Source: Acidobacteriota bacterium (GTDB lineage: Bacteria > Acidobacteriota > Vicinamibacteria > Fen-336). Taken from it: 64,000 bases of DNA. The stretch spans positions 92,211 through 156,210 of the forward strand of contig QHVM01000085.1 of NCBI GenBank assembly GCA_003223555.1. The letters run 5' to 3'. The notes below the pieces were generated by a model that saw only the letters and a program-made list of their open reading frames with translations, was not told the DNA's origin and made no database searches. Shown in pieces: positions 1,190 through 9,717 of the stretch (the first letter of the stretch is position 1; each line of letters starts with the position of its first letter). Made by a program: the position numbers and the translations under genes.

Positions 1190-1555
1190 GTGAGCGAGCT
1201 GACCGTGGAGACGCGCGACGTCGAGGGGGTGACGCTCCTCTACCCCAGGGGCTTCATCAACGCCCACACCGTCCGCCAGTTCGAGGGGGAGATCCAGAAG
1301 GCGCTGGCGCAGGGCCACTTCAAGATCGTGGTCAGCTGCTCGGGCCTGGCCTACATCGCCAGCGCGGGCCTGGGCGCACTCATGGGAGCCATCGAGGAGA
1401 TCCGGGGCAACGGCGGCGACCTCCGCCTGGCCAACCTCAACGAGACCGTCCGCAACATCTTCGAGATCCTGGGCTTCAACCACCTCTATCGCATCTATCC
1501 TTCGGAGGTGGAGGCCATCACCAGCTTCCGCTCCGCGGGAGCGGCGGGGTGCTGA
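1190..1555 (+). CDS. STAS-domain anti-sigma-factor antagonist (SpoIIAA/RsbV-like)
   Basis: A 121-aa protein of STAS fold size with the SCSGLAYIASAGLGALMG motif. It sits immediately upstream of an RsbW-like kinase gene. Confidence 0.75.
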   Translation: MSELTVETRDVEGVTLLYPRGFINAHTVRQFEGEIQKALAQGHFKIVVSCSGLAYIASAGLGALMGAIEEIRGNGGDLRLANLNETVRNIFEILGFNHLYRIYPSEVEAITSFRSAGAAGC

Positions 1556-2055
1556 GGCCGGTGGCCCGCCGCGCGCCGCGCCGGTCGAACGTCGGAGAAG
1601 GAGCGGCGCCCGCCCCGCGCTCCGTCAAGGCCAGCCTCCGGCTGTCGATCCCGAGCCAGACGTCGTTCCTGGGCGTGGTGCGGGAGATCACGAAGAAGAT
1701 GGCGGAGTCGGCCGGCTTCTCGGCCGGCACCGCGGACCGGCTGGCCCTGGCGGTGGACGAGGCCGTCACCAACGTCATCGAGCACGCCTACCACGGCGCC
1801 GCGGACCGGGAGGTCGAGCTGCGCATCGAGGACCGGGGAGACGAGTTCCGGGTGGAGGTCGTCGACAGCGGGGCGTCGGTGGACCCCCGCGCCGTGCCGC
1901 GGGTGGACCTGCCGCGCTACGTCAGCGAGCGCCGCACCGGCGGCCTGGGCGTCCACCTGATGGAGAAGATCATGGACTCGGTGACGTTCCGGCGCTCGGC
2001 CCGGCGCAACGTCTGCTGCCTCGTCAAGCGCAAGGACTCGCCACCGGCCCGGTGA
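1549..2055 (+). CDS. anti-sigma regulatory factor, Ser-protein kinase (RsbW/SpoIIAB-like HATPase_c)
   Basis: Motifs AVDEAVTNVIEHAY and GGLGVHLM of the GHKL ATPase family. Overlaps the STAS gene stop. Exact start uncertain (GTG 1549 or 1561). Confidence 0.75.
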   Translation: MLRPVARRAPRRSNVGEGAAPAPRSVKASLRLSIPSQTSFLGVVREITKKMAESAGFSAGTADRLALAVDEAVTNVIEHAYHGAADREVELRIEDRGDEFRVEVVDSGASVDPRAVPRVDLPRYVSERRTGGLGVHLMEKIMDSVTFRRSARRNVCCLVKRKDSPPAR

Positions 2056-3824
2056 CCGTGAATACCCCCGTCGTCTACCAGTACCAGCGGGCCCTCGACG
2101 CCTTCCGACGCGAGGGAGGATCCTCGCCGCTGCTCAAGCGGATGTCGGAGCTCATCTCGCTGCTGGACCTCACCACCACGCTCAACTCCAGCCTTTCGGG
2201 GGCCGAGATCCTCGACGCCGCGCTCCTGATCGTGATGGGGGAGCTGCAAGCCACGCGCGGCGTTCTCCTCGTGCGGGCCGAGAGCGGGAGCTTCCGCGTC
2301 CAGGCCTCGCGGGGGCTGCCTCCGGGGGCGCCCGCTCAGGTGGAGCTGGGTCCGCTGGCGAGTCCGGAGGTGATCTTCCGCCGCCGGGGCGCGCACGAGG
2401 GGGTGTTCGAGGCCTGCGGCCTGGAGGTGCTCTGTCCCATCTTCAAGGCCGACCGGCCGATCGCCGTCCTGGGGCTGGGGCCACGCGCCGACGGCCGGCC
2501 CTTCGACGTGGAGGAGTCCTCCTTCCTGCAGAGCGTCGCCGCCTGCGCCGCCACTCCCATCGAGAACGGCCTCATCTACCACGAGCTGAAACGCGTGAAC
2601 CAGCGGCTGTCGGTCAAGGTCTTCCAGCTCCACAACCTCTTCGACCTCAGCCGCGAGCTGACCTCGAGCTTCGACGAAGAGGCGATCGAGACCCTCGTCG
2701 CCACGACGCTCATGGGCCACCTCATGGTCTCGCGCTGCGCCCTCTACCGGGCCGCCGAGGGCGGCCTGGTCGTCGCCCATGCGCGCGGCCTGCGCGGCGA
2801 CGAACTGGACCGCTCCATCCCGGCCGCCGAAGCCCGCGTGCTGCTCGGAGCGCTCCGCTCGCCTCTCCGGGTGGCCGAGCTGCCGCCGGGCGCTGCCCGC
2901 GAGCGGCTGGCCGCGGCGCGCATGGCCCTCCTGGTCCCGCTGGCGGCGGGGGAGTCGGTGCAGGGCTTCCTGGCCCTGGGCGAGCGCGTGTCGGGCCTGC
3001 CCTTCAGCGAAGAGGACCTCGAGTTCGCACTGACGCTGGCCCGCCAGGCGCTGGCCGCCCTCGAGAGCGTGCGGCTGCACCGGGTGCGCCTGGAGCAGCA
3101 ACGGCGCGACCGCGAGATGCAGATCGCGCGCGAGATCCAGCAGAGCCTCTTCCCCCGGTCGCGGCCCCCGGTCGCCGGCTTCGACCTGGCCGCGCTCAGC
3201 GATCCATGCCAGGAGGTGGGGGGCGACCATTACGATTTCATCCCCCTCGACGGCGGCCGGCTGGCCCTGGCGGTGGCGGACGTGTCGGGAAAGGGCGCCC
3301 CGGCGAGCATCCTGATGGCCTCGGTCCACGCCTCGCTGCGGGCCATGGCCGGATCGAGCCCGCCGGCGGCGCTGGTGGGGCGGCTCAACCGCTTCCTCCT
3401 CGCCAGCACCCAGGAGAACAAGTACGTGACGCTCTTCTACGCCGAGCTGGACCCGGCCGCCCGCCGCCTCGTCTACGTGAACGGCGGCCACGTGCCGCCC
3501 TGCCGGATCAGCGCCGATGGAGCGTGCGAGCGGCTGCTCGCCGGCGGGCCGGCCCTGGGCCTGCTCGAGCGCGCAGATTACGAAGCCGGCGTGACGGAGA
3601 TGGGAACGGGAGACGTGATGACGGTGGTGACCGACGGGGTGACCGAAGCCGCCTCTCCCGACGACCGTGAGTTCGGCGAGGAGGGGCTGCTTCGGGTGGT
3701 GCGCGCGAGCCGCCAGGAGGGAGCCGAGGCCATCCTGAACGCCCTCGTGCGGGCCGTGCACGCGTGGACGGGACCGGCCGGGTGCTCGGACGACCTGACC
3801 GCCCTCGTGCTGAAGGCCTCCTGA
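2052..3824 (+). CDS. GAF-domain PP2C-type Ser phosphatase (RsbU/SpoIIE family)
   Basis: N-terminal GAF-like regions and a C-terminal PP2C/SpoIIE core (GGDHYDFIPLDGGRLALAVADVSGKG ... VTDGVTEA). Completes a partner-switching trio with the two genes upstream. Confidence 0.8.
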   Translation: MTVNTPVVYQYQRALDAFRREGGSSPLLKRMSELISLLDLTTTLNSSLSGAEILDAALLIVMGELQATRGVLLVRAESGSFRVQASRGLPPGAPAQVELGPLASPEVIFRRRGAHEGVFEACGLEVLCPIFKADRPIAVLGLGPRADGRPFDVEESSFLQSVAACAATPIENGLIYHELKRVNQRLSVKVFQLHNLFDLSRELTSSFDEEAIETLVATTLMGHLMVSRCALYRAAEGGLVVAHARGLRGDELDRSIPAAEARVLLGALRSPLRVAELPPGAARERLAAARMALLVPLAAGESVQGFLALGERVSGLPFSEEDLEFALTLARQALAALESVRLHRVRLEQQRRDREMQIAREIQQSLFPRSRPPVAGFDLAALSDPCQEVGGDHYDFIPLDGGRLALAVADVSGKGAPASILMASVHASLRAMAGSSPPAALVGRLNRFLLASTQENKYVTLFYAELDPAARRLVYVNGGHVPPCRISADGACERLLAGGPALGLLERADYEAGVTEMGTGDVMTVVTDGVTEAASPDDREFGEEGLLRVVRASRQEGAEAILNALVRAVHAWTGPAGCSDDLTALVLKAS

Positions 3825-3827
3825 GGC

Positions 3828-5194
3828 ATGATCCTGCACAACACCCTCACCGGCCGGACCGAGCCCTTCGCCCCCGCCCTCCCGCCCCAAGTCCGGATGT
3901 ACGTCTGCGGCCTGACCGTGTACGGCCGGGGCCACATCGGCAACTACCGGTCCCTGGTCGCTACGGACCTCCTGCGCCGCACCCTGCGGTACAAGGGATG
4001 GCGGGTGAAGGAGGTCATGAACATCACCGACGTCGACGACCGGATCATCCAGCTCGGGAAGGCGTCCGGCAAGGACCTGCGCGGCTTCACCGCGGAGCAC
4101 ATCCGCTCCTTCGACGAGGACAGCGCCACGCTGCGCATGGAGCGGCCCGAGGTGGTCCCGCGGGCCACCGACCACATCCCGGACATGATCGGCCTCGTCG
4201 AGCGCCTCATCACCCGCGGCCACACCTACACCGCCGAGGGAAGCGTCTACTTCAAGATCGCGACCTTCCCCGAGTACGGCCGCCTGTCCCGCCTCGACGT
4301 GTCGGGGATCAAGGCCGGGGCGCGGGTGGACACCGACAAGTACGAAAAGGAGGACGCCCGGGACTTCGTCCTGTGGAAGGCCAAGGAGGACGAGCCGGAG
4401 TGGGCGCACTGGGACGCGCCCTTCGGCCGCGGCCGACCGGGGTGGCACCTCGAGTGCTCGGCGATGAGCATGAAGTACCTGGGCGAGACCTTCGACCTGC
4501 ATTGCGGCGGCGTCGACCTCATCTTCCCGCACCACGAGAACGAGATCGCCCAGAGCACCTGCGCCACGGGCAAACCCTTCGTGCGCCACTGGATGCACGT
4601 GACGCACCTGCTCGTCGACAACGAGACGATGTCGAAGAGCAAGGGAAACTTCTACACGATCCCGGACCTGCTGCAGCGCGGCCATCGGCCGGATGCGATC
4701 CGCTACCTGATCTGCGCGGCGCATTACCGCAAGCCCCTCAACTTCACGTGATCGACAAGGTCCACGGCTTCGTGCGCCGTCTGGACGAGATCGACCAGGA
4801 GGGTCCCCCGGCGCCGGCCGTCGAGAGCGCGGTGGCGAAGGCGCGCGAGGCCTTCGACCGCGCGCTGGAGGACGACCTGAACACGCCGGAGGCCCTGGCC
4901 GCCGTGCACGAGCTGGTCAACGAAGGCAACCGCCTGCTCGCGGAGGGCGCCCTGACGCGCGAGGGGGCGGCCCGGGTGCGCTCCCGGCTCGAGGCGATGG
5001 ATCAGGTCTTCGCGGTGCTTCTCCCGGGGGAGGACCGGCTCTCTCCAGAGGAGCAGGCCCTCTTCGACGCTCGCCAGGAGGCGCGGCGCAAGCGGGAGTT
5101 CCAGAAGGCCGACGAGCGCCGGAACGAACTGGAGGAGATGGGAGTGATCCTCGAGGACACGCCGAAGGGAACGCGGTGGCGGCGGAAGCACTGA
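3828..5194 (+). CDS. cysS: cysteinyl-tRNA synthetase, apparently interrupted by a 1-nt frameshift near 4749-4752
   Basis: The N-terminal two thirds (HIGN motif, class I catalytic core, KMSKS-like TMSKSKGN) are in the frame that stops at 4749-4751. The C-terminal anticodon-binding domain (DDLNTPEAL ... GVILEDTPKGTRWRR) continues in a second frame, represented by ORF 3764..5194. The junction is consistent with a single missing base. Confidence 0.85.
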
Positions 5195-5583
5195 AGGCGC
5201 TCGTCTCGCGCCTGGGCCGGGGCCCGCGCTCCGGTGGGCCGGGAGAGACGCTGGCCTGCCGCCACCTGGAAGGCCAGGGCTTCGTGATCCTGGCCCGGAA
5301 CTACCGCTGCCGGTCGGGCGAGGTCGACGTGGTGGCCCGCCACGGCGAGGCCACCGTCTTCGTGGAGGTGAAGGAGCGCCACGGCGCGTCGCACGGCGCG
5401 GGTTGCGACAGCGTGACCTTCGGCAAGCGCCGCCGCATCGTCCGCGCCGCGCGCTTGTACGCCGTGGCCCACGGCCTCGACGAGGCGCCGCTGCGCTTCG
5501 ACGTGGTGTCCATCGACTGGACGCAGGCCGGCGGGCCGCAGATCCGCCACGACCAGGGCGCCTTCAACGTCGACGGAGGCTGA
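5176..5583 (+). CDS. yraN: YraN-family (UPF0102) endonuclease
   Basis: Motif GEVDVVARHGEATVFVEVKER typical of YraN. GTG start overlapping the cysS end. Confidence 0.7.
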   Translation: MAAEALKALVSRLGRGPRSGGPGETLACRHLEGQGFVILARNYRCRSGEVDVVARHGEATVFVEVKERHGASHGAGCDSVTFGKRRRIVRAARLYAVAHGLDEAPLRFDVVSIDWTQAGGPQIRHDQGAFNVDGG

Positions 5584-5586
5584 GGC

Positions 5587-6153
5587 GTGAGGGAGCCAGT
5601 CTCGGCGGCGGCGCTCGTCGCATCCGCCGTCGCGTGCGCTGCGGTCGGCCTGGCCTGCCACCGCTCGCCGCCGGGCCCCGACGTGCCGGCCCTGCTGGCC
5701 CAGTTGAAGAGCGCCGATCCGGAAGTCCGCGGCAAGGCCAGCCTCGCCCTCATCCCGGTCGGCGAGCCGGCGGTTCCCGGGCTCATCGAGATGCTGAAGA
5801 GCGCCGAGCCCCAGCAGCGCGCAACCGCGGCCTCCACGCTCTTCGGCATGGGGCCCAGGGCCAGGGCGGCGGTGCCGGCCCTCGCGGACGCCCTCTCGGA
5901 TCCTGATCGGGAGATGCGGATGTCGGCCGCGATGGCGCTCGAGTCCATCGGCCCGGACGCGGCGCCGGCGGTCCTCGCGCTGGTGCGGGCCCTCAAGGAC
6001 CCCGAAGGGCTGGTCCGGCAACGGGCGGCCATCGCCCTCGGCAGCATCGGCCCGGGCGCGCGCGAGGCGCTGCCGGCCCTGCGGGAGGCGAGCCGCGTCG
6101 ACATCGTCCGGCCGGCGGCCGAGGAGGCGATCCAGAGGATCCAGGCTCGCTGA
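5587..6153 (+). CDS. HEAT-repeat (PBS-lyase type) lipoprotein
   Basis: Signal peptide with a lipobox-like VGLAC, followed by repeated units of the form ..AL..LKD.D..VR..AA.ALG.IG. Confidence 0.65.
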   Translation: MREPVSAAALVASAVACAAVGLACHRSPPGPDVPALLAQLKSADPEVRGKASLALIPVGEPAVPGLIEMLKSAEPQQRATAASTLFGMGPRARAAVPALADALSDPDREMRMSAAMALESIGPDAAPAVLALVRALKDPEGLVRQRAAIALGSIGPGAREALPALREASRVDIVRPAAEEAIQRIQAR

Positions 6154-6221
6154 GCCCGCGCCATGCACGACCCGTCGCCTGCTTGCGTTTCTCCGGGAGC
6201 AAGCGTACTGAAGGAGGACTG

Positions 6222-7826
6222 ATGCGCAGGCTTCGAGTCGCGATCCTGGACCTGCTGGAGAAGGGTCCCTGCCACTCCCTGTGGGCCCGGGTCATGGCGC
6301 CCAACTTTGCGAGCATCATGCCCCAGGTGATCGGCGTCTGGTGCGAGCAGGCCGGTCACGACGTCACCCTCGTCTGCTACACCGGCCGGGAGGACCTGGC
6401 CCGCGAGCTACCGGACGACACGGATCTGGTCTTCATCGCCTCCTACACGCAGACCGCCCACCTCGCCTACGCGCTGGCCAACGTCTACCGGCAGCGCGGG
6501 GCGGTGACGGCCCTGGGCGGGGCGCACGCGCGCTGCTACCCGCACGACGCGGCCCGGTACTTCGACTACGTCCTCGGGTTCACCGACCGGGCGATCGTCG
6601 ACGAGGTGCTGCGGGACTGCGCGCCCCATCGGCCCGCGGGATTGAGCCTTTCCGCCCGGCGGCAGCCCGCCCAGCTCCCGGGAGTCAGGGAAAGATGGAA
6701 GTTCATCGAGCCCACCATCGCCAGGGGGGCCGCCATCAAGATCATCCCCATGATCGGGAGCCTCGGCTGCCCCTACACCTGCAGCTTCTGCATCGACGCC
6801 ACGGTGGACTACCAGCCCCTGGACGCGGGCCAAATCCGCGACGACCTCCGTTTCCTGCTCGGGAAGCTCAAGCGGCCGATGGTGGGCTGGCACGATCCCA
6901 ACTTCGGCGTGCGGTTCGACGAGATCATGACCACCATCGAGGCCGCCGTCCCCGCCGATCGCATCGACTTCCTCGCCGAGAGCAGCCTGTCCCTACTCTC
7001 CGAGCCCCACCTGCGGCGGCTGCAGCGCAACGGGTTCAAGGCGATCCTGCCCGGGATCGAGTCCTGGTACTCGCTGGGCGGCAAGTCGAAGACCGGAAGC
7101 CTCACGGGCCTCGAGAAGGTGCGGCGGGTCTCGGACCACGTGAACACGATCCTGCGCTACGTGCCCTACGTCCAGGCCAACTTCGTGCTCGGCCTCGACG
7201 ACGACGCGGGCGAGGAGCCCTTCGAGCTGACCAAGCTCTTCGTCGACATGACGCCGGGCGCGTTCCCCGCCTATTCGCTGCTGTCCGCCTTCGGCCAGGC
7301 GGCGCCGCTCAACCTCGACCTGCAGCGCGACGGCCGCGTGCTCCCCACCCCCTTCCACTTCCTCGACAACAACCAGGCGACCAACGTCCGGCCCAAGAAC
7401 TACACCTGGCCCGCGCTCTACGACAACGTCATCGCCCTGCGGCGCCATTCGTTCTCCTGGCGCGTCATCGGGCGGCGGATGCGCGCGAACCGCGTCCCCA
7501 CCGCCCGGTGGATGAACGTCGTGCGGGCCGTGTCGGAGGAAGGCTTCGGCCGCATCCGCCACGACTCCATCGTCCGCCGGCTCCTCGACGACGACCGGTG
7601 CGTGCGCCGCTTCTTCGAGGGCGAGAGCGACGTCCTGCCCGCGTTCTACACGGATCGGGTCCGCAAGGACCTCGGGCCCTGGTGGGACGCCCTTCCCGAG
7701 GGCTCGCTGCGCCACGATCCCAACGCGTACCTCAAGGCATGCCAGGCGGCCCGGCCGCCCGGCCTCGAAGTCGCGCCGCCCCCGCCCGCCGCCCGTCCGC
7801 GCCCACCCCGGCCGTCGGCGCCGTGA
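6222..7826 (+). CDS. B12-binding-domain radical SAM protein (class B) with a long C-terminal extension
   Basis: N-terminal cobalamin-binding-like domain (RVAILDLL...), radical SAM CxxxCxxC (GCPYTCSFC), then about 250 aa of extra C-terminal sequence. Perfect RBS AAGGAGG 5 nt upstream of ATG 6222. Confidence 0.8.
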   Translation: MRRLRVAILDLLEKGPCHSLWARVMAPNFASIMPQVIGVWCEQAGHDVTLVCYTGREDLARELPDDTDLVFIASYTQTAHLAYALANVYRQRGAVTALGGAHARCYPHDAARYFDYVLGFTDRAIVDEVLRDCAPHRPAGLSLSARRQPAQLPGVRERWKFIEPTIARGAAIKIIPMIGSLGCPYTCSFCIDATVDYQPLDAGQIRDDLRFLLGKLKRPMVGWHDPNFGVRFDEIMTTIEAAVPADRIDFLAESSLSLLSEPHLRRLQRNGFKAILPGIESWYSLGGKSKTGSLTGLEKVRRVSDHVNTILRYVPYVQANFVLGLDDDAGEEPFELTKLFVDMTPGAFPAYSLLSAFGQAAPLNLDLQRDGRVLPTPFHFLDNNQATNVRPKNYTWPALYDNVIALRRHSFSWRVIGRRMRANRVPTARWMNVVRAVSEEGFGRIRHDSIVRRLLDDDRCVRRFFEGESDVLPAFYTDRVRKDLGPWWDALPEGSLRHDPNAYLKACQAARPPGLEVAPPPPAARPRPPRPSAP

Positions 7827-8007
7827 TGCCTCGCCGGTGACGGCCCATCCGGTCGCCCGCCACATTCCCCTCCCCACCGAGGGCGACCGCGGGCCTCGAC
7901 GGCGGCCCGCTTGATCACACCTGTCCTGCTCGTCGCCACTCGGGTGGACCCGATTCCAGCGCGCCAGGATCAGAGGCCGCCCAACAACTCCAGGAGGTGC
8001 CACGAGC

Positions 8008-8610
8008 ATGCGCCATCGCTTCGTGCTCTTCTCCATTGCGGTCCTCCACTCGCTCGCGATTCCGCTGCTCGCGCAGGCCCCGCGCCCCTCCCCCAGGCCG
8101 CAGCCCCGTCCTCACGTCATGCGCGTGGACGTCGATCCGCGAACGATCGAGATCGACGACGGCGACTCGGTGGTGATCCACTGGTCCCGGGAAGACTCCG
8201 AGATCGTGCGCATCCTGGGGATCGACACGCCCGAGACGCGGCACCTCGAGCACGACATTCCCTACAGCCAGGAGTTCGGAGAGCAGGCCACCGCCTTCGC
8301 GCGCGGCGCCTTCGCCGTCGCCTCCCAGGTCGAGCTGCTTCGCGCGGCGACGCTCGATCCCTACGGCCGCACGCTCGGGTATCTGTTCCTGAACGGGCGC
8401 AACTACTCGGTGCTGGTGGTGAGGGCCGGGCTGGCGGAGGAGAGCGTGGGCCGTTACGGCGACAACGGCCTGCCGCGCGAGGCCGCCGACGTCCTGGCCG
8501 CGGCGAAGGCCGCCGGCCCGGTGCCGTTCCAGTCTCCCGCCGATTTTCGCAGCCGCATGCGTGATCTCTCGAGCTGGATGAAGGCGCGGGGCATCTACCC
8601 GGATCGATAG
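8008..8610 (+). CDS. secreted thermonuclease (staphylococcal nuclease / SNase-like)
   Basis: Signal peptide, then SNase motifs (GDSVVIHW ... RILGIDTPE ... DPYGRTLGY). Confidence 0.75.
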   Translation: MRHRFVLFSIAVLHSLAIPLLAQAPRPSPRPQPRPHVMRVDVDPRTIEIDDGDSVVIHWSREDSEIVRILGIDTPETRHLEHDIPYSQEFGEQATAFARGAFAVASQVELLRAATLDPYGRTLGYLFLNGRNYSVLVVRAGLAEESVGRYGDNGLPREAADVLAAAKAAGPVPFQSPADFRSRMRDLSSWMKARGIYPDR

Positions 8611-9433
8611 CGGACCCCCCGCTGCCCACACCTCGAGGCAGCGGGCCTCTCCCTTCTCCCGCGGCCGAAATAGCATACCCCCCTATGGGCTGTTCATCGC
8701 CCCGCGCGAGGCGGCCATCAGGTGCGCGGAGCCGGACCACTCTGCCTACACGCCTGAATCCCCTCGGCCGCGTTCATCCACGTCGTGCGGGATCACCGAC
8801 GAATGGCTTGGGGTCGATGACGAGCCACGGCTTCCGCTGCGCCCGAAGCACGTTTAGAGGGCGGAAGGGATGCGCCACGGGTGACCGCCACAGGCGACGC
8901 AGAAGACGTGCGATGACGAGATCCTGCTCTGACTCTGGCCGCGTTCGCAGCGGCGTCCCTGGCTCGCAACGCTCAAGAAGACTGGCGCCGAGGTCGTCGT
9001 CCGCCTCGTAGAGCCGCACCGTCGGGTGTCCGTTCCAGAAACGCAGGCGTCTTGCTGCACGTCATTGCGAGCCTTCGTGGAATGGTCAGCATGCGTTCAT
9101 CGTGACCGGGGCCGTCGCTGGCCGCCAGGAGGGCGCGGCGCCCGGGGATCTCCGACCGCTTCTTTCCTCCCGAAATGCCACTCGAAGCGGCTCTTGAGCA
9201 CGAGCCCCGGCCCTTGCCCTCCGATATCGAACGATGGGACAACACCGCCAAGACGGCGACACCGCAGACCTCGCGCACGCAGATCTCCTCCTGACTGACC
9301 GGGAACGCACCATGAGGTTCTTGTGGGTAACGGTCGAGCTAGAAGGGTGGTGGGGCGTAGCCGGCGCGAGGGCACCCATGGTTGCGGACCGCGTGGATCA
9401 CGCAGCCAATTGGCGGCCGGTGGGCGACCGTCA

Positions 9434-9508
9434 TGGAGCGGGAAACGGGATTCGAACCCGCGACTTCGACCTTGGCAAGGTCGCACTCTACCACTGAGTT
9501 ATTCCCGC
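9434..9508 (-). tRNA. tRNA-Gly (anticodon GCC)
   Basis: Reverse complement reads GCGGGAATAACTCAGTGGTAGAGTGCGACCTTGCCAAGGTCGAAGTCGCGGGTTCGAATCCCGTTTCCCGCTCCA. Cloverleaf with anticodon loop CTTGCCAAG and encoded CCA. Confidence 0.9.
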
Positions 9509-9641: not shown

Positions 9642-9717
9642 GGCGGCGTAGCCAAGTGGTTAAGGCGGAGGTCTGCAAAACCTCTACTCTCCGGTTCAAG
9701 TCCGGACGCCGCCTCCA
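9642..9717 (+). tRNA. tRNA-Cys (anticodon GCA)
   Basis: GGCGGCGTAGCCAAGTGGTTAAGGCGGAGGTCTGCAAAACCTCTACTCTCCGGTTCAAGTCCGGACGCCGCCTCCA. Acceptor GGCGGCG/CGCCGCC, anticodon loop CTGCAAA, encoded CCA. Confidence 0.9.

What the first reader, a model, noticed from the sequence alone, without database searches (positions are those of the whole stretch)
5587..8610. Class B (B12-binding) radical SAM enzyme with a long C-terminal extension, flanked by a HEAT-repeat lipoprotein and a secreted nuclease
The radical SAM protein (6222-7826, perfect AAGGAGG RBS) carries an N-terminal cobalamin-binding-like domain, a CPYTCSFC cluster motif and about 250 extra C-terminal residues. Its substrate cannot be inferred. 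Class B radical SAM enzymes typically methylate unreactive carbons in lipids, RiPPs or cofactors. It sits between a HEAT-repeat lipoprotein and, after a 180-bp gap, a signal-peptide SNase-like nuclease. No precursor peptide or obvious pathway partner is seen within 2 kb, so the function is open.
Basis: partly seen in the sequence, partly recalled or inferred. Interest (0 to 1): 0.5.

Follow-up and report, generated by a model that had tools for sequence, protein, structure and literature searches.

The report
Orphan, highly conserved radical SAM enzyme
This is a real, stand-alone gene for a radical SAM enzyme from a large family, very strongly conserved across many bacterial phyla, in which nothing has been characterised; its two neighbours are unrelated to it, and its substrate, possibly a membrane lipid, is still unknown.

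Summary

The radical SAM protein has an N-terminal cobalamin-type Rossmann domain, a barrel with CPYTCSFC, and a conserved basic helical C-terminal domain. Only the last ~24 residues vary.

It fits no characterised subfamily. Every NCBIfam model is far below cut-off, and the nearest solved structures (AprD4, MgmA, CysS, TsrM, TokK, MiaB/RimO) share only 12-15% identity.

It belongs to a very large orphan family:
- More than 5,900 proteins matched, and more than 586 places in species-representative genomes.
- Members share 57-96% identity across Acidobacteriota, Gemmatimonadota, Nitrospirota, Methylomirabilis, Poribacteria, KSB1, Ignavibacteria, Bacteroidota and Myxococcota.
- Every named member is from a MAG or an enrichment culture.
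- There is a paralogous sub-clade (~36% identity) and a divergent clade on virus-like contigs.

A census of 351 neighbouring genes found no conserved partner. An 85%-identical relative has entirely different neighbours, so the HEAT and nuclease genes are incidental. No precursor peptide is present.

The only recurring neighbours are lipid genes (PAP2 plus a DAGK-type lipid kinase, ceramidase, PlsC, CdsA, fatty-acid desaturase). My best guess, at low confidence, is modification of a membrane-lipid tail.

The parts
6211..6217 (+). Shine-Dalgarno AAGGAGG, four bases before the start codon
   Evidence: Read directly from the sequence.
6222..7826 (+). Radical SAM enzyme, 534 aa, member of an orphan conserved family (sub-clade 1)
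   Evidence: ORF. More than 5,900 homologues, with the top 120 at 69-89% identity over the full length. Model pLDDT 91.2.
6222..6671 (+). N-terminal Rossmann domain of the cobalamin-binding type (residues ~1-150), with the invariant GGxHA motif at 99-103
6672..7346 (+). Radical SAM barrel (residues ~151-375)
6768..6791 (+). Codons for C183-x3-C187-x2-C190, the ligands of the [4Fe-4S] cluster that binds SAM
   Evidence: Invariant in alignments A1 and A3; no other cysteine is invariant.
7347..7751 (+). Family-specific, all-helical, basic C-terminal domain (residues ~376-510, pI 10.1)
   Evidence: Helices 396-510 at high pLDDT. Conserved in sub-clades 1 and 2. Charge computed. No Pfam family matches it.
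7752..7823 (+). Variable, low-confidence Pro/Ala-rich tail (residues 511-534)
   Evidence: Not conserved in A1. pLDDT 52-63.
5587..6153 (+). HEAT-repeat protein with a hydrophobic N-terminus; a neighbour that is not functionally linked
   Evidence: Pfam HEAT_2 at E 1.4e-21. Not among the recurring neighbours in other genomes and absent next to the 85%-identical relative.
8008..8610 (+). SNase-like nuclease with an N-terminal signal-like segment; a neighbour that is not functionally linked
   Evidence: Pfam SNase at 47.9 bits, cut-off 21. Not among the recurring downstream neighbours and absent next to the 85%-identical relative.

Best explanation
The gene encodes a stand-alone enzyme from a large, uncharacterised and very strongly conserved clade of two-domain radical SAM proteins.

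Shown here: the architecture, the cluster motif, the family and its distribution, and the lack of any link to the flanking genes.

Inferred from how the superfamily is known to work: C183, C187 and C190 hold a [4Fe-4S] cluster. The cluster reductively cleaves S-adenosylmethionine to a 5'-deoxyadenosyl radical, which removes a hydrogen atom from an unactivated C-H bond of the substrate.

My committed guess for the rest, at low confidence:
- The conserved N-terminal Rossmann domain holds cobalamin, and the substrate radical is quenched by methyl transfer from methylcobalamin (C-methylation). Desaturation, cyclisation or C-C coupling remain possible outcomes, as in other enzymes of this class.
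- The basic helical C-terminal domain caps the barrel and selects the substrate.
- The substrate is the hydrocarbon tail of a membrane glycerolipid or sphingolipid.

The HEAT-repeat protein and the SNase nuclease are unrelated neighbours.

For: Orphan status. The best NCBIfam hit is 20 bits against a cut-off of 251, and no relative reaches any characterised model. Across three database searches the sources give only generic names.

Conservation. The top 120 homologues are 69-89% identical. The 80 loci kept from species-representative genomes span more than 12 phyla at 57-96% pairwise identity. Mean identity between phyla is 68%, against 70-71% within a phylum.

Stand-alone gene. No partner recurs among 70 upstream, 71 downstream and 112 second neighbours of sub-clade 1, or among 98 neighbours of sub-clade 2. 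The downstream gene is often convergent. An 85%-identical relative has different neighbours.

Lipid hint. The only neighbours that recur in more than one lineage or arrangement are lipid genes:
- Gemmatimonadales carry PAP2, a DAGK_cat/YegS-type lipid kinase and the radical SAM gene together. The kinase is adjacent in 9 loci, in two gene orders.
- Ceramidase lies two genes away in L039 and L050.
- A PlsC-type acyltransferase lies next to L058.
- In sub-clade 2, a fatty-acid desaturase is adjacent in three lineages, and PlsC, CdsA, Lnt and an LpxO-like hydroxylase each appear in two or three loci.

Precedent. Cobalamin-type radical SAM enzymes that methylate, cyclise or desaturate lipid tails are known: GDGT ring synthases, GMGT/GDGT methylases, the tetraether desaturase Ted, and the hopanoid methylases HpnP/HpnR (PMC11214058; bioRxiv 10.1101/2025.10.20.683597; PMC13459092).
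Against: The lipid association is weak. It touches roughly 25 of about 160 bacterial loci, it collapses to perhaps ten independent lineages, and I made no formal enrichment test. Most loci show unrelated neighbours.

Cobalamin binding is untested. The nearest relative by both sequence profile and structure is AprD4, which from my own knowledge acts on a sugar without cobalamin.

One virus-like member ends a glycosyltransferase and methyltransferase cluster, which points to sugars instead.

The extreme conservation and the basic C-terminal domain would also suit a protein or RNA substrate.

I could not inspect the model's coordinates for a hydrophobic pocket.
Confidence: 0.35

Rival explanations
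1. The enzyme is cobalamin-independent and works like AprD4. The Rossmann domain is structural only, and the enzyme performs a dehydration or other redox-neutral radical rearrangement on a sugar, a glycan or another polar small molecule.
Against: Identity to AprD4 is only 12-15%, and the sequence match covers only the barrel. The NCBIfam AprD4 model is not matched by the window protein and only weakly by relatives (E 3e-7). No partner reductase or sugar-nucleotide gene recurs next to bacterial members. The N-terminal domain carries many invariant polar residues and GGxHA, which is more than a purely structural domain would need.
Confidence: 0.2
2. The enzyme modifies a conserved macromolecule, either a protein side chain (as MgmA and Mmp10 do) or an RNA base (as MiaB and RlmN do). 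That would explain both the stand-alone gene and the very high conservation.
Against: There is no N-terminal auxiliary-cluster cysteine triad and no TRAM-like beta domain, so it is not a methylthiotransferase. The distribution shows little taxonomic structure, a transposase lies next to one member, and there is a virus-like clade; these features are unusual for enzymes that modify the translation machinery. No ribosomal or tRNA-modification neighbours recur.
Confidence: 0.15
3. The enzyme is a RiPP maturase that acts on a small precursor peptide encoded nearby.
For: Many cobalamin-type radical SAM enzymes methylate RiPPs. A 181-bp gap follows the gene.
Against: The gap holds only a 25-codon GTG ORF. 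No small ORF or any other gene is conserved next to the 160 bacterial loci. Apart from the cluster motif, no cysteine is invariant. Identity of 57-96% across phyla is unlike fast-evolving RiPP systems.
Confidence: 0.03

Closest known systems
AprD4 (radical SAM 1,2-diol dehydratase of apramycin biosynthesis, PDB 6fd2)
   Different: Identity is only 12-15%, and the sequence match is limited to the barrel. AprD4 sits in an aminoglycoside gene cluster with a partner reductase (my own knowledge). This gene stands alone and carries a different, basic helical C-terminal domain.
Cobalamin-dependent radical SAM methylases with solved structures (TokK 7kdx, CysS 9n1b, TsrM 6wte, MgmA 9ccb)
   Different: Identity is 13-15%. 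Those enzymes are 420-660 residues long with other C-terminal domains, and most sit in biosynthetic clusters. Cobalamin binding is untested here.
Lipid-tail-modifying cobalamin-type radical SAM enzymes (HpnP/HpnR, GDGT ring synthases GrsA/B, GMGT/GDGT methylases, tetraether desaturase Ted)
   Same: Same enzyme class, acting on inert hydrocarbon tails (PMC13459092; PMC11214058; bioRxiv 10.1101/2025.10.20.683597). This is the functional analogy that the weak lipid-gene neighbourhood suggests.
   Different: The HpnR and HpnJ models are matched only weakly by relatives (E 3e-8 and 2e-11, far below cut-off) and not at all by the window protein. I could not compare the archaeal enzymes directly, because no sequences were available to me. 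There is no evidence for hopanoid or tetraether genes nearby.
Methylthiotransferases MiaB and RimO
   Different: This protein lacks the second iron-sulfur cluster's cysteines in the N-terminal domain and lacks the TRAM domain.

Membership tests
Radical SAM superfamily | CxxxCxxC motif that binds the [4Fe-4S] cluster | tested here: met
   C183-x3-C187-x2-C190, invariant in 60 diverse relatives.
Radical SAM superfamily | Partial TIM-barrel fold and a match to Pfam PF04055 | tested here: met
Class B (cobalamin-dependent) radical SAM enzymes | N-terminal Rossmann domain of the cobalamin-binding type | tested here: met
   Pfam B12-binding scores 26.5 bits, below the cut-off of 32.1. 24 of 36 relatives match. 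The modelled fold matches TokK, TsrM and CysS.
Class B (cobalamin-dependent) radical SAM enzymes | Actually binds and uses cobalamin | not testable with these tools
   The closest solved relative, AprD4, has the same domain but from my own knowledge does not use cobalamin. This needs purified protein.
Characterised class B subfamilies (HpnP/HpnR, HpnJ, BchE, PhpK, KedN5, ApyD, ladderane-type, TIGR04013, TIGR04295) | Score at or above the curated NCBIfam cut-off | tested here: not met
   The window protein matches only TIGR04013, at 20.1 bits against a cut-off of 251. Relatives reach E 1e-7 to 1e-12 at best.
AprD4 family diol dehydratases (NF033070) | Match to the family model | tested here: not met
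   No hit for the window protein. Ten of 36 relatives hit it, at E 3e-7 or weaker. Structural identity is 12%.
Methylthiotransferases (MiaB/RimO) | Second cluster bound by three N-terminal cysteines, and a C-terminal TRAM domain | tested here: not met
   No N-terminal cysteine is invariant. The C-terminal domain is all-helical.
RiPP-modifying radical SAM enzymes | Adjacent precursor peptide gene; often SPASM/twitch auxiliary cysteines | tested here: not met
   No plausible small ORF, no conserved neighbour and no extra conserved cysteines.
Tetraether synthase Tes / GDGT-MAS | Fold and auxiliary clusters of PDB 7tom | tested here: not met
Anti-phage defence systems (PADLOC) | Match to a defence-system model | not tested
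The neighbours show no enrichment for defence genes.
Staphylococcal nuclease family (the neighbour at 8008-8610) | Pfam PF00565 above the cut-off | tested here: met
   47.9 bits against a cut-off of 21.

The most novel reading that the evidence does not exclude
The two paralogous bacterial sub-clades could be the missing enzymes that build or decorate the bacterial membrane-spanning lipids used as palaeoclimate proxies. They would either methylate the alkyl chains of branched GDGTs (the paralogues might then give the positional isomers) or couple iso-fatty-acid tails to make iso-diabolic acid.

This would fit three things. Most iso-diabolic-acid-producing Acidobacteria, including subdivision 6 (the class Vicinamibacteria, to which this window's closest relatives belong), lack Mss and mostly lack Tes (PMC13159169). 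Branched-GDGT producers outside the Acidobacteria are still unidentified. And the family occurs mostly in uncultured soil and sediment lineages.
Probability: 0.07. Interest if true: 0.85.

Novelty: new variant of a known kind. Interest (0 to 1): 0.4.

Why it matters
Radical SAM enzymes with a cobalamin-type domain carry out some of the hardest reactions in biology on unactivated carbon. Each newly characterised clade has so far revealed new chemistry or a new biomarker pathway.

This clade is unusual in four ways:
- Size: thousands of sequences and more than 586 species-representative genomes.
- Conservation: about 68% identity between phyla.
- It lies in variable gene contexts, with no conserved partner.
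- It is invisible to current annotation, and no cultured or characterised member turned up among those I could name.

That pattern means a strongly constrained function in abundant soil and sediment bacteria is still unknown. If the weak link to lipid genes holds, the enzyme would be a candidate for an unassigned bacterial lipid modification.

On present evidence it is a well-defined target for enzymology, not a surprise.

Tried and rejected
- **Single-sequence structure prediction.** It gave pLDDT 34.8 and was useless. I repeated it with a 60-sequence alignment.
- **PDB sequence search with the single protein.** Nothing significant. The family profile was needed.
- **AlphaFold-database fold search.** The library was not available.
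- **Riboswitch or other RNA element near the gene.** No such element in the window or in 11 related loci; only tRNAs matched. One call failed because the input was too large.
- **Promoter and terminator scan of 5100-8800.** Nothing found.
- **Precursor peptide in the 181-bp gap.** Rejected.
- **Conserved partner gene.** I clustered all six-frame ORFs of 82 and 83 loci and ran Pfam censuses of the neighbours. There is no family-wide partner.
- **HEAT and SNase as partners.** Rejected.
- **A second copy or sub-clade 2 paralogue in the window.** None.
- **Lipid-gene homologues elsewhere in the window.** None of the query panel matched.
- **Cultured carriers.** Two cluster look-ups found only MAGs and Candidatus Methylomirabilis enrichments.
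- **Literature.** No paper links this family to a function.
- **The conserved ~330-aa protein upstream of the virus-like members.** It has no Pfam or PHROG match and no homologue near bacterial members.
Full report
**What is in the sequence**

The window has about 70% G+C. The closest relatives of the central gene are named Vicinamibacteria, a class of Acidobacteriota. On the plus strand lie:
- a YraN-type gene (5176-5583);
- a 188-aa HEAT-repeat protein (5587-6153; Pfam HEAT_2 at E 1.4e-21);
- a 534-aa radical SAM protein (6222-7826);
- after 181 bp, a 200-aa SNase-like protein (8008-8610; 47.9 bits against a cut-off of 21).

AAGGAGG lies at 6211-6217, four bases before the ATG. Homologues start at the same MRRLRV, so the ATG at 6222 is the start.

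**Anatomy of the protein**

Taken alone, the protein matches Pfam B12-binding (26.5 bits) and Radical_SAM (26.1 bits) only below their gathering scores. Its relatives match both models: 24 and 33 of 36 respectively.

An AlphaFold2 model built on a 60-sequence alignment is confident (pLDDT 91.2, pTM 0.89). It shows four parts:
- a Rossmann domain (about 1-150) carrying the invariant GGxHA at 99-103;
- a radical SAM barrel (about 151-375) with C183, C187 and C190;
- an all-helical domain (about 376-510);
- a low-confidence Pro/Ala tail.

The three cluster cysteines are the only invariant cysteines, so there is no auxiliary cluster. The helical domain is basic (pI 10.1) and conserved in all relatives. 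Only the last ~24 residues vary.

**Placement among known families**

No curated NCBIfam model comes close. The best is TIGR04013 at 20 bits against a cut-off of 251. Among 36 diverse relatives the best E-values are 1e-7 to 1e-12, against HpnJ, HpnR, BchE, PhpK, AprD4, ApyD and the ladderane-type model.

A family profile finds AprD4 in the PDB at E 6.4e-13, over the barrel only. TokK and CysS match only around the cluster loop.

So the protein belongs to the group of radical SAM enzymes with a cobalamin-type N-terminal domain, but to none of its characterised subfamilies. Whether it binds cobalamin cannot be decided here. From my own knowledge, AprD4 has the same domain and does not use it.

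**The family**

More than 5,900 proteins match, and the best 120 are 69-89% identical over the full length. A scan of one genome per species found more than 586 places. The best 80 span many groups, all of them MAGs:
- Acidobacteriota (Vicinamibacteria, Blastocatellia, Thermoanaerobaculia, Bryobacterales);
- Gemmatimonadota, Nitrospirota, Poribacteria and KSB1;
- Calditrichaceae, Ignavibacteria, Bacteroidota and Myxococcales;
- Deltaproteobacteria and a Deferribacteres-labelled MAG.

Pairwise identity among them is 57-96%. The mean between phyla (68%) is almost the same as within Gemmatimonadota (70%) or Acidobacteriota (71%). That fits very strong constraint, horizontal spread, or both. The sample is, however, biased toward the query.

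The named members are MAGs or Candidatus Methylomirabilis enrichments, and no isolate appeared.

An exhaustive search of 1.8 billion representatives gave 262 clusters at E 1e-30 or better. Clustering separates three groups:
- sub-clade 1 (this gene);
- sub-clade 2, about 36% identical to it and about 54% identical internally, which also occurs in Vicinamibacterales;
- further clades at 28-35% identity.

**Neighbourhood**

Six-frame ORF clustering of the 80 genome loci found no gene family shared beyond synteny within an order. Pfam censuses of 70 upstream, 71 downstream and 112 second neighbours found no common partner. The same held for 98 neighbours of sub-clade 2 in 80 metagenome loci.

The downstream gene is often on the opposite strand. 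An 85%-identical relative lies after RND efflux genes and before hypothetical genes. Others lie after a restriction-modification system or before a transposase.

HEAT and SNase families are not among the recurring neighbours. The 181-bp gap holds only a 25-codon GTG ORF. No riboswitch, promoter-like or terminator-like site was found. The gene has no conserved partner, and the flanking genes are incidental.

**Hints to the substrate**

The only neighbour families that recur in more than one lineage or arrangement are lipid enzymes.

In sub-clade 1:
- Gemmatimonadales have a PAP2 lipid phosphatase directly followed by a DAGK_cat/YegS-type lipid kinase and then the radical SAM gene.
- The kinase is adjacent in nine loci. 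In two of them it lies downstream instead of upstream.
- A ceramidase lies two genes away in two loci.
- A PlsC-type acyltransferase is adjacent in one locus.

In sub-clade 2:
- A fatty-acid desaturase is adjacent in three lineages, upstream, downstream or on the opposite strand.
- PlsC and CdsA follow the gene in a Nitrospinota genome, and each appears again in another locus.
- Lnt and an LpxO-like hydroxylase each appear twice.

This is suggestive but thin. It covers roughly 25 of about 160 loci and perhaps ten independent events, and I made no formal test.

One observation points the other way. A member on a 174-kb low-GC contig ends a run of glycosyltransferase and methyltransferase genes, and the best structural match, AprD4, acts on a sugar.

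**A virus-like branch**

Members at 30-35% identity lie on contigs of 28-41% G+C. These carry tightly packed co-directional genes, homing endonucleases, BclA_C-type fibre proteins and 7-deazaguanine genes. Two lie on IMG/VR contigs of 115 kb and 340 kb.

Three of them share an unannotated ~330-aa gene immediately upstream. That gene has no homologue near bacterial members.

**Mechanism and verdict**

It is safe to say that this is an enzyme that uses a [4Fe-4S] cluster and SAM to generate a 5'-deoxyadenosyl radical.

My committed but low-confidence reading (0.35) is cobalamin-assisted C-methylation, or another modification, of a membrane-lipid tail. This is by analogy with HpnP/HpnR and the archaeal GDGT-modifying enzymes (PMC13459092; PMC11214058; bioRxiv 10.1101/2025.10.20.683597).

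The rivals are:
- a cobalamin-independent, AprD4-like reaction on a sugar (0.2);
- modification of a protein or RNA (0.15);
- RiPP maturation (0.03).

The most novel reading not excluded concerns bacterial membrane-spanning lipids. Most iso-diabolic-acid-producing Acidobacteria lack Mss and mostly lack Tes (PMC13159169), so this family could supply the missing chemistry (0.07).

The finding is a genuine orphan enzyme family in a known superfamily. It is a good experimental target but not a surprise, so I score interest at 0.4.

Noticed in passing
window 3828-5194 (break at 4746-4751): The cysteinyl-tRNA synthetase gene is split between two frames. One frame ends ...PLNFT-TGA at 4749-4751. The C-terminal part (VIDKVHGFVRRL...DDLNTPEALA...) continues from 4748 in the -1 frame. 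This is either a one-base assembly error or a real frameshift in an essential gene.
   Followed up: partly
L169 4969-7473; L171 5000-7497; L173 6975-9494; L172 6001-7488; L174 7971-9497: A divergent clade of the same radical SAM family (30-35% identity) lies on low-GC, virus-like contigs, two of them IMG/VR contigs of 115 kb and 340 kb. In three of these an unannotated ~330-aa gene sits immediately upstream, after BclA_C-type fibre-like genes. In L172 the gene ends a glycosyltransferase/methyltransferase cluster and is followed by an HNH gene.
   Followed up: partly
L011 4198-7533 and the equivalent regions of L018, L038, L044, L051, L080; order swapped in L055 and L065: Gemmatimonadales keep a PAP2 lipid phosphatase, a DAGK_cat/YegS-type lipid kinase and the radical SAM gene together. 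The kinase stays adjacent even where the gene order is rearranged.
   Followed up: partly
L084 8001-12379 (Nitrospinota); L114, L143, L124, L125, L128, L119: The paralogous sub-clade 2 (about 36% identity) sits before CdsA and PlsC in one genome and next to a fatty-acid desaturase in three lineages.
   Followed up: partly
window 9434-9508 (-) and 9642-9717 (+): Divergent tRNA-Gly(GCC) and tRNA-Cys(GCA) genes lie about 800 bp downstream of the nuclease gene.
   Followed up: no
window 1190-3824: A partner-switching module, judged from reading the ORF translations only (no family search was run on them): a STAS anti-sigma antagonist (1190-1555), an RsbW-like kinase (1549-2055) and a GAF-PP2C phosphatase (2052-3824), directly upstream of cysS.
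   Followed up: no
L003 7633-8781; L167 1-6082: One sub-clade 1 member is followed 40 bp downstream by a Y2-type transposase. The Methylomirabilis-cluster member follows a type I restriction-modification system and RadC. Both fit the weak taxonomic structure of the family and possible horizontal transfer.
   Followed up: no
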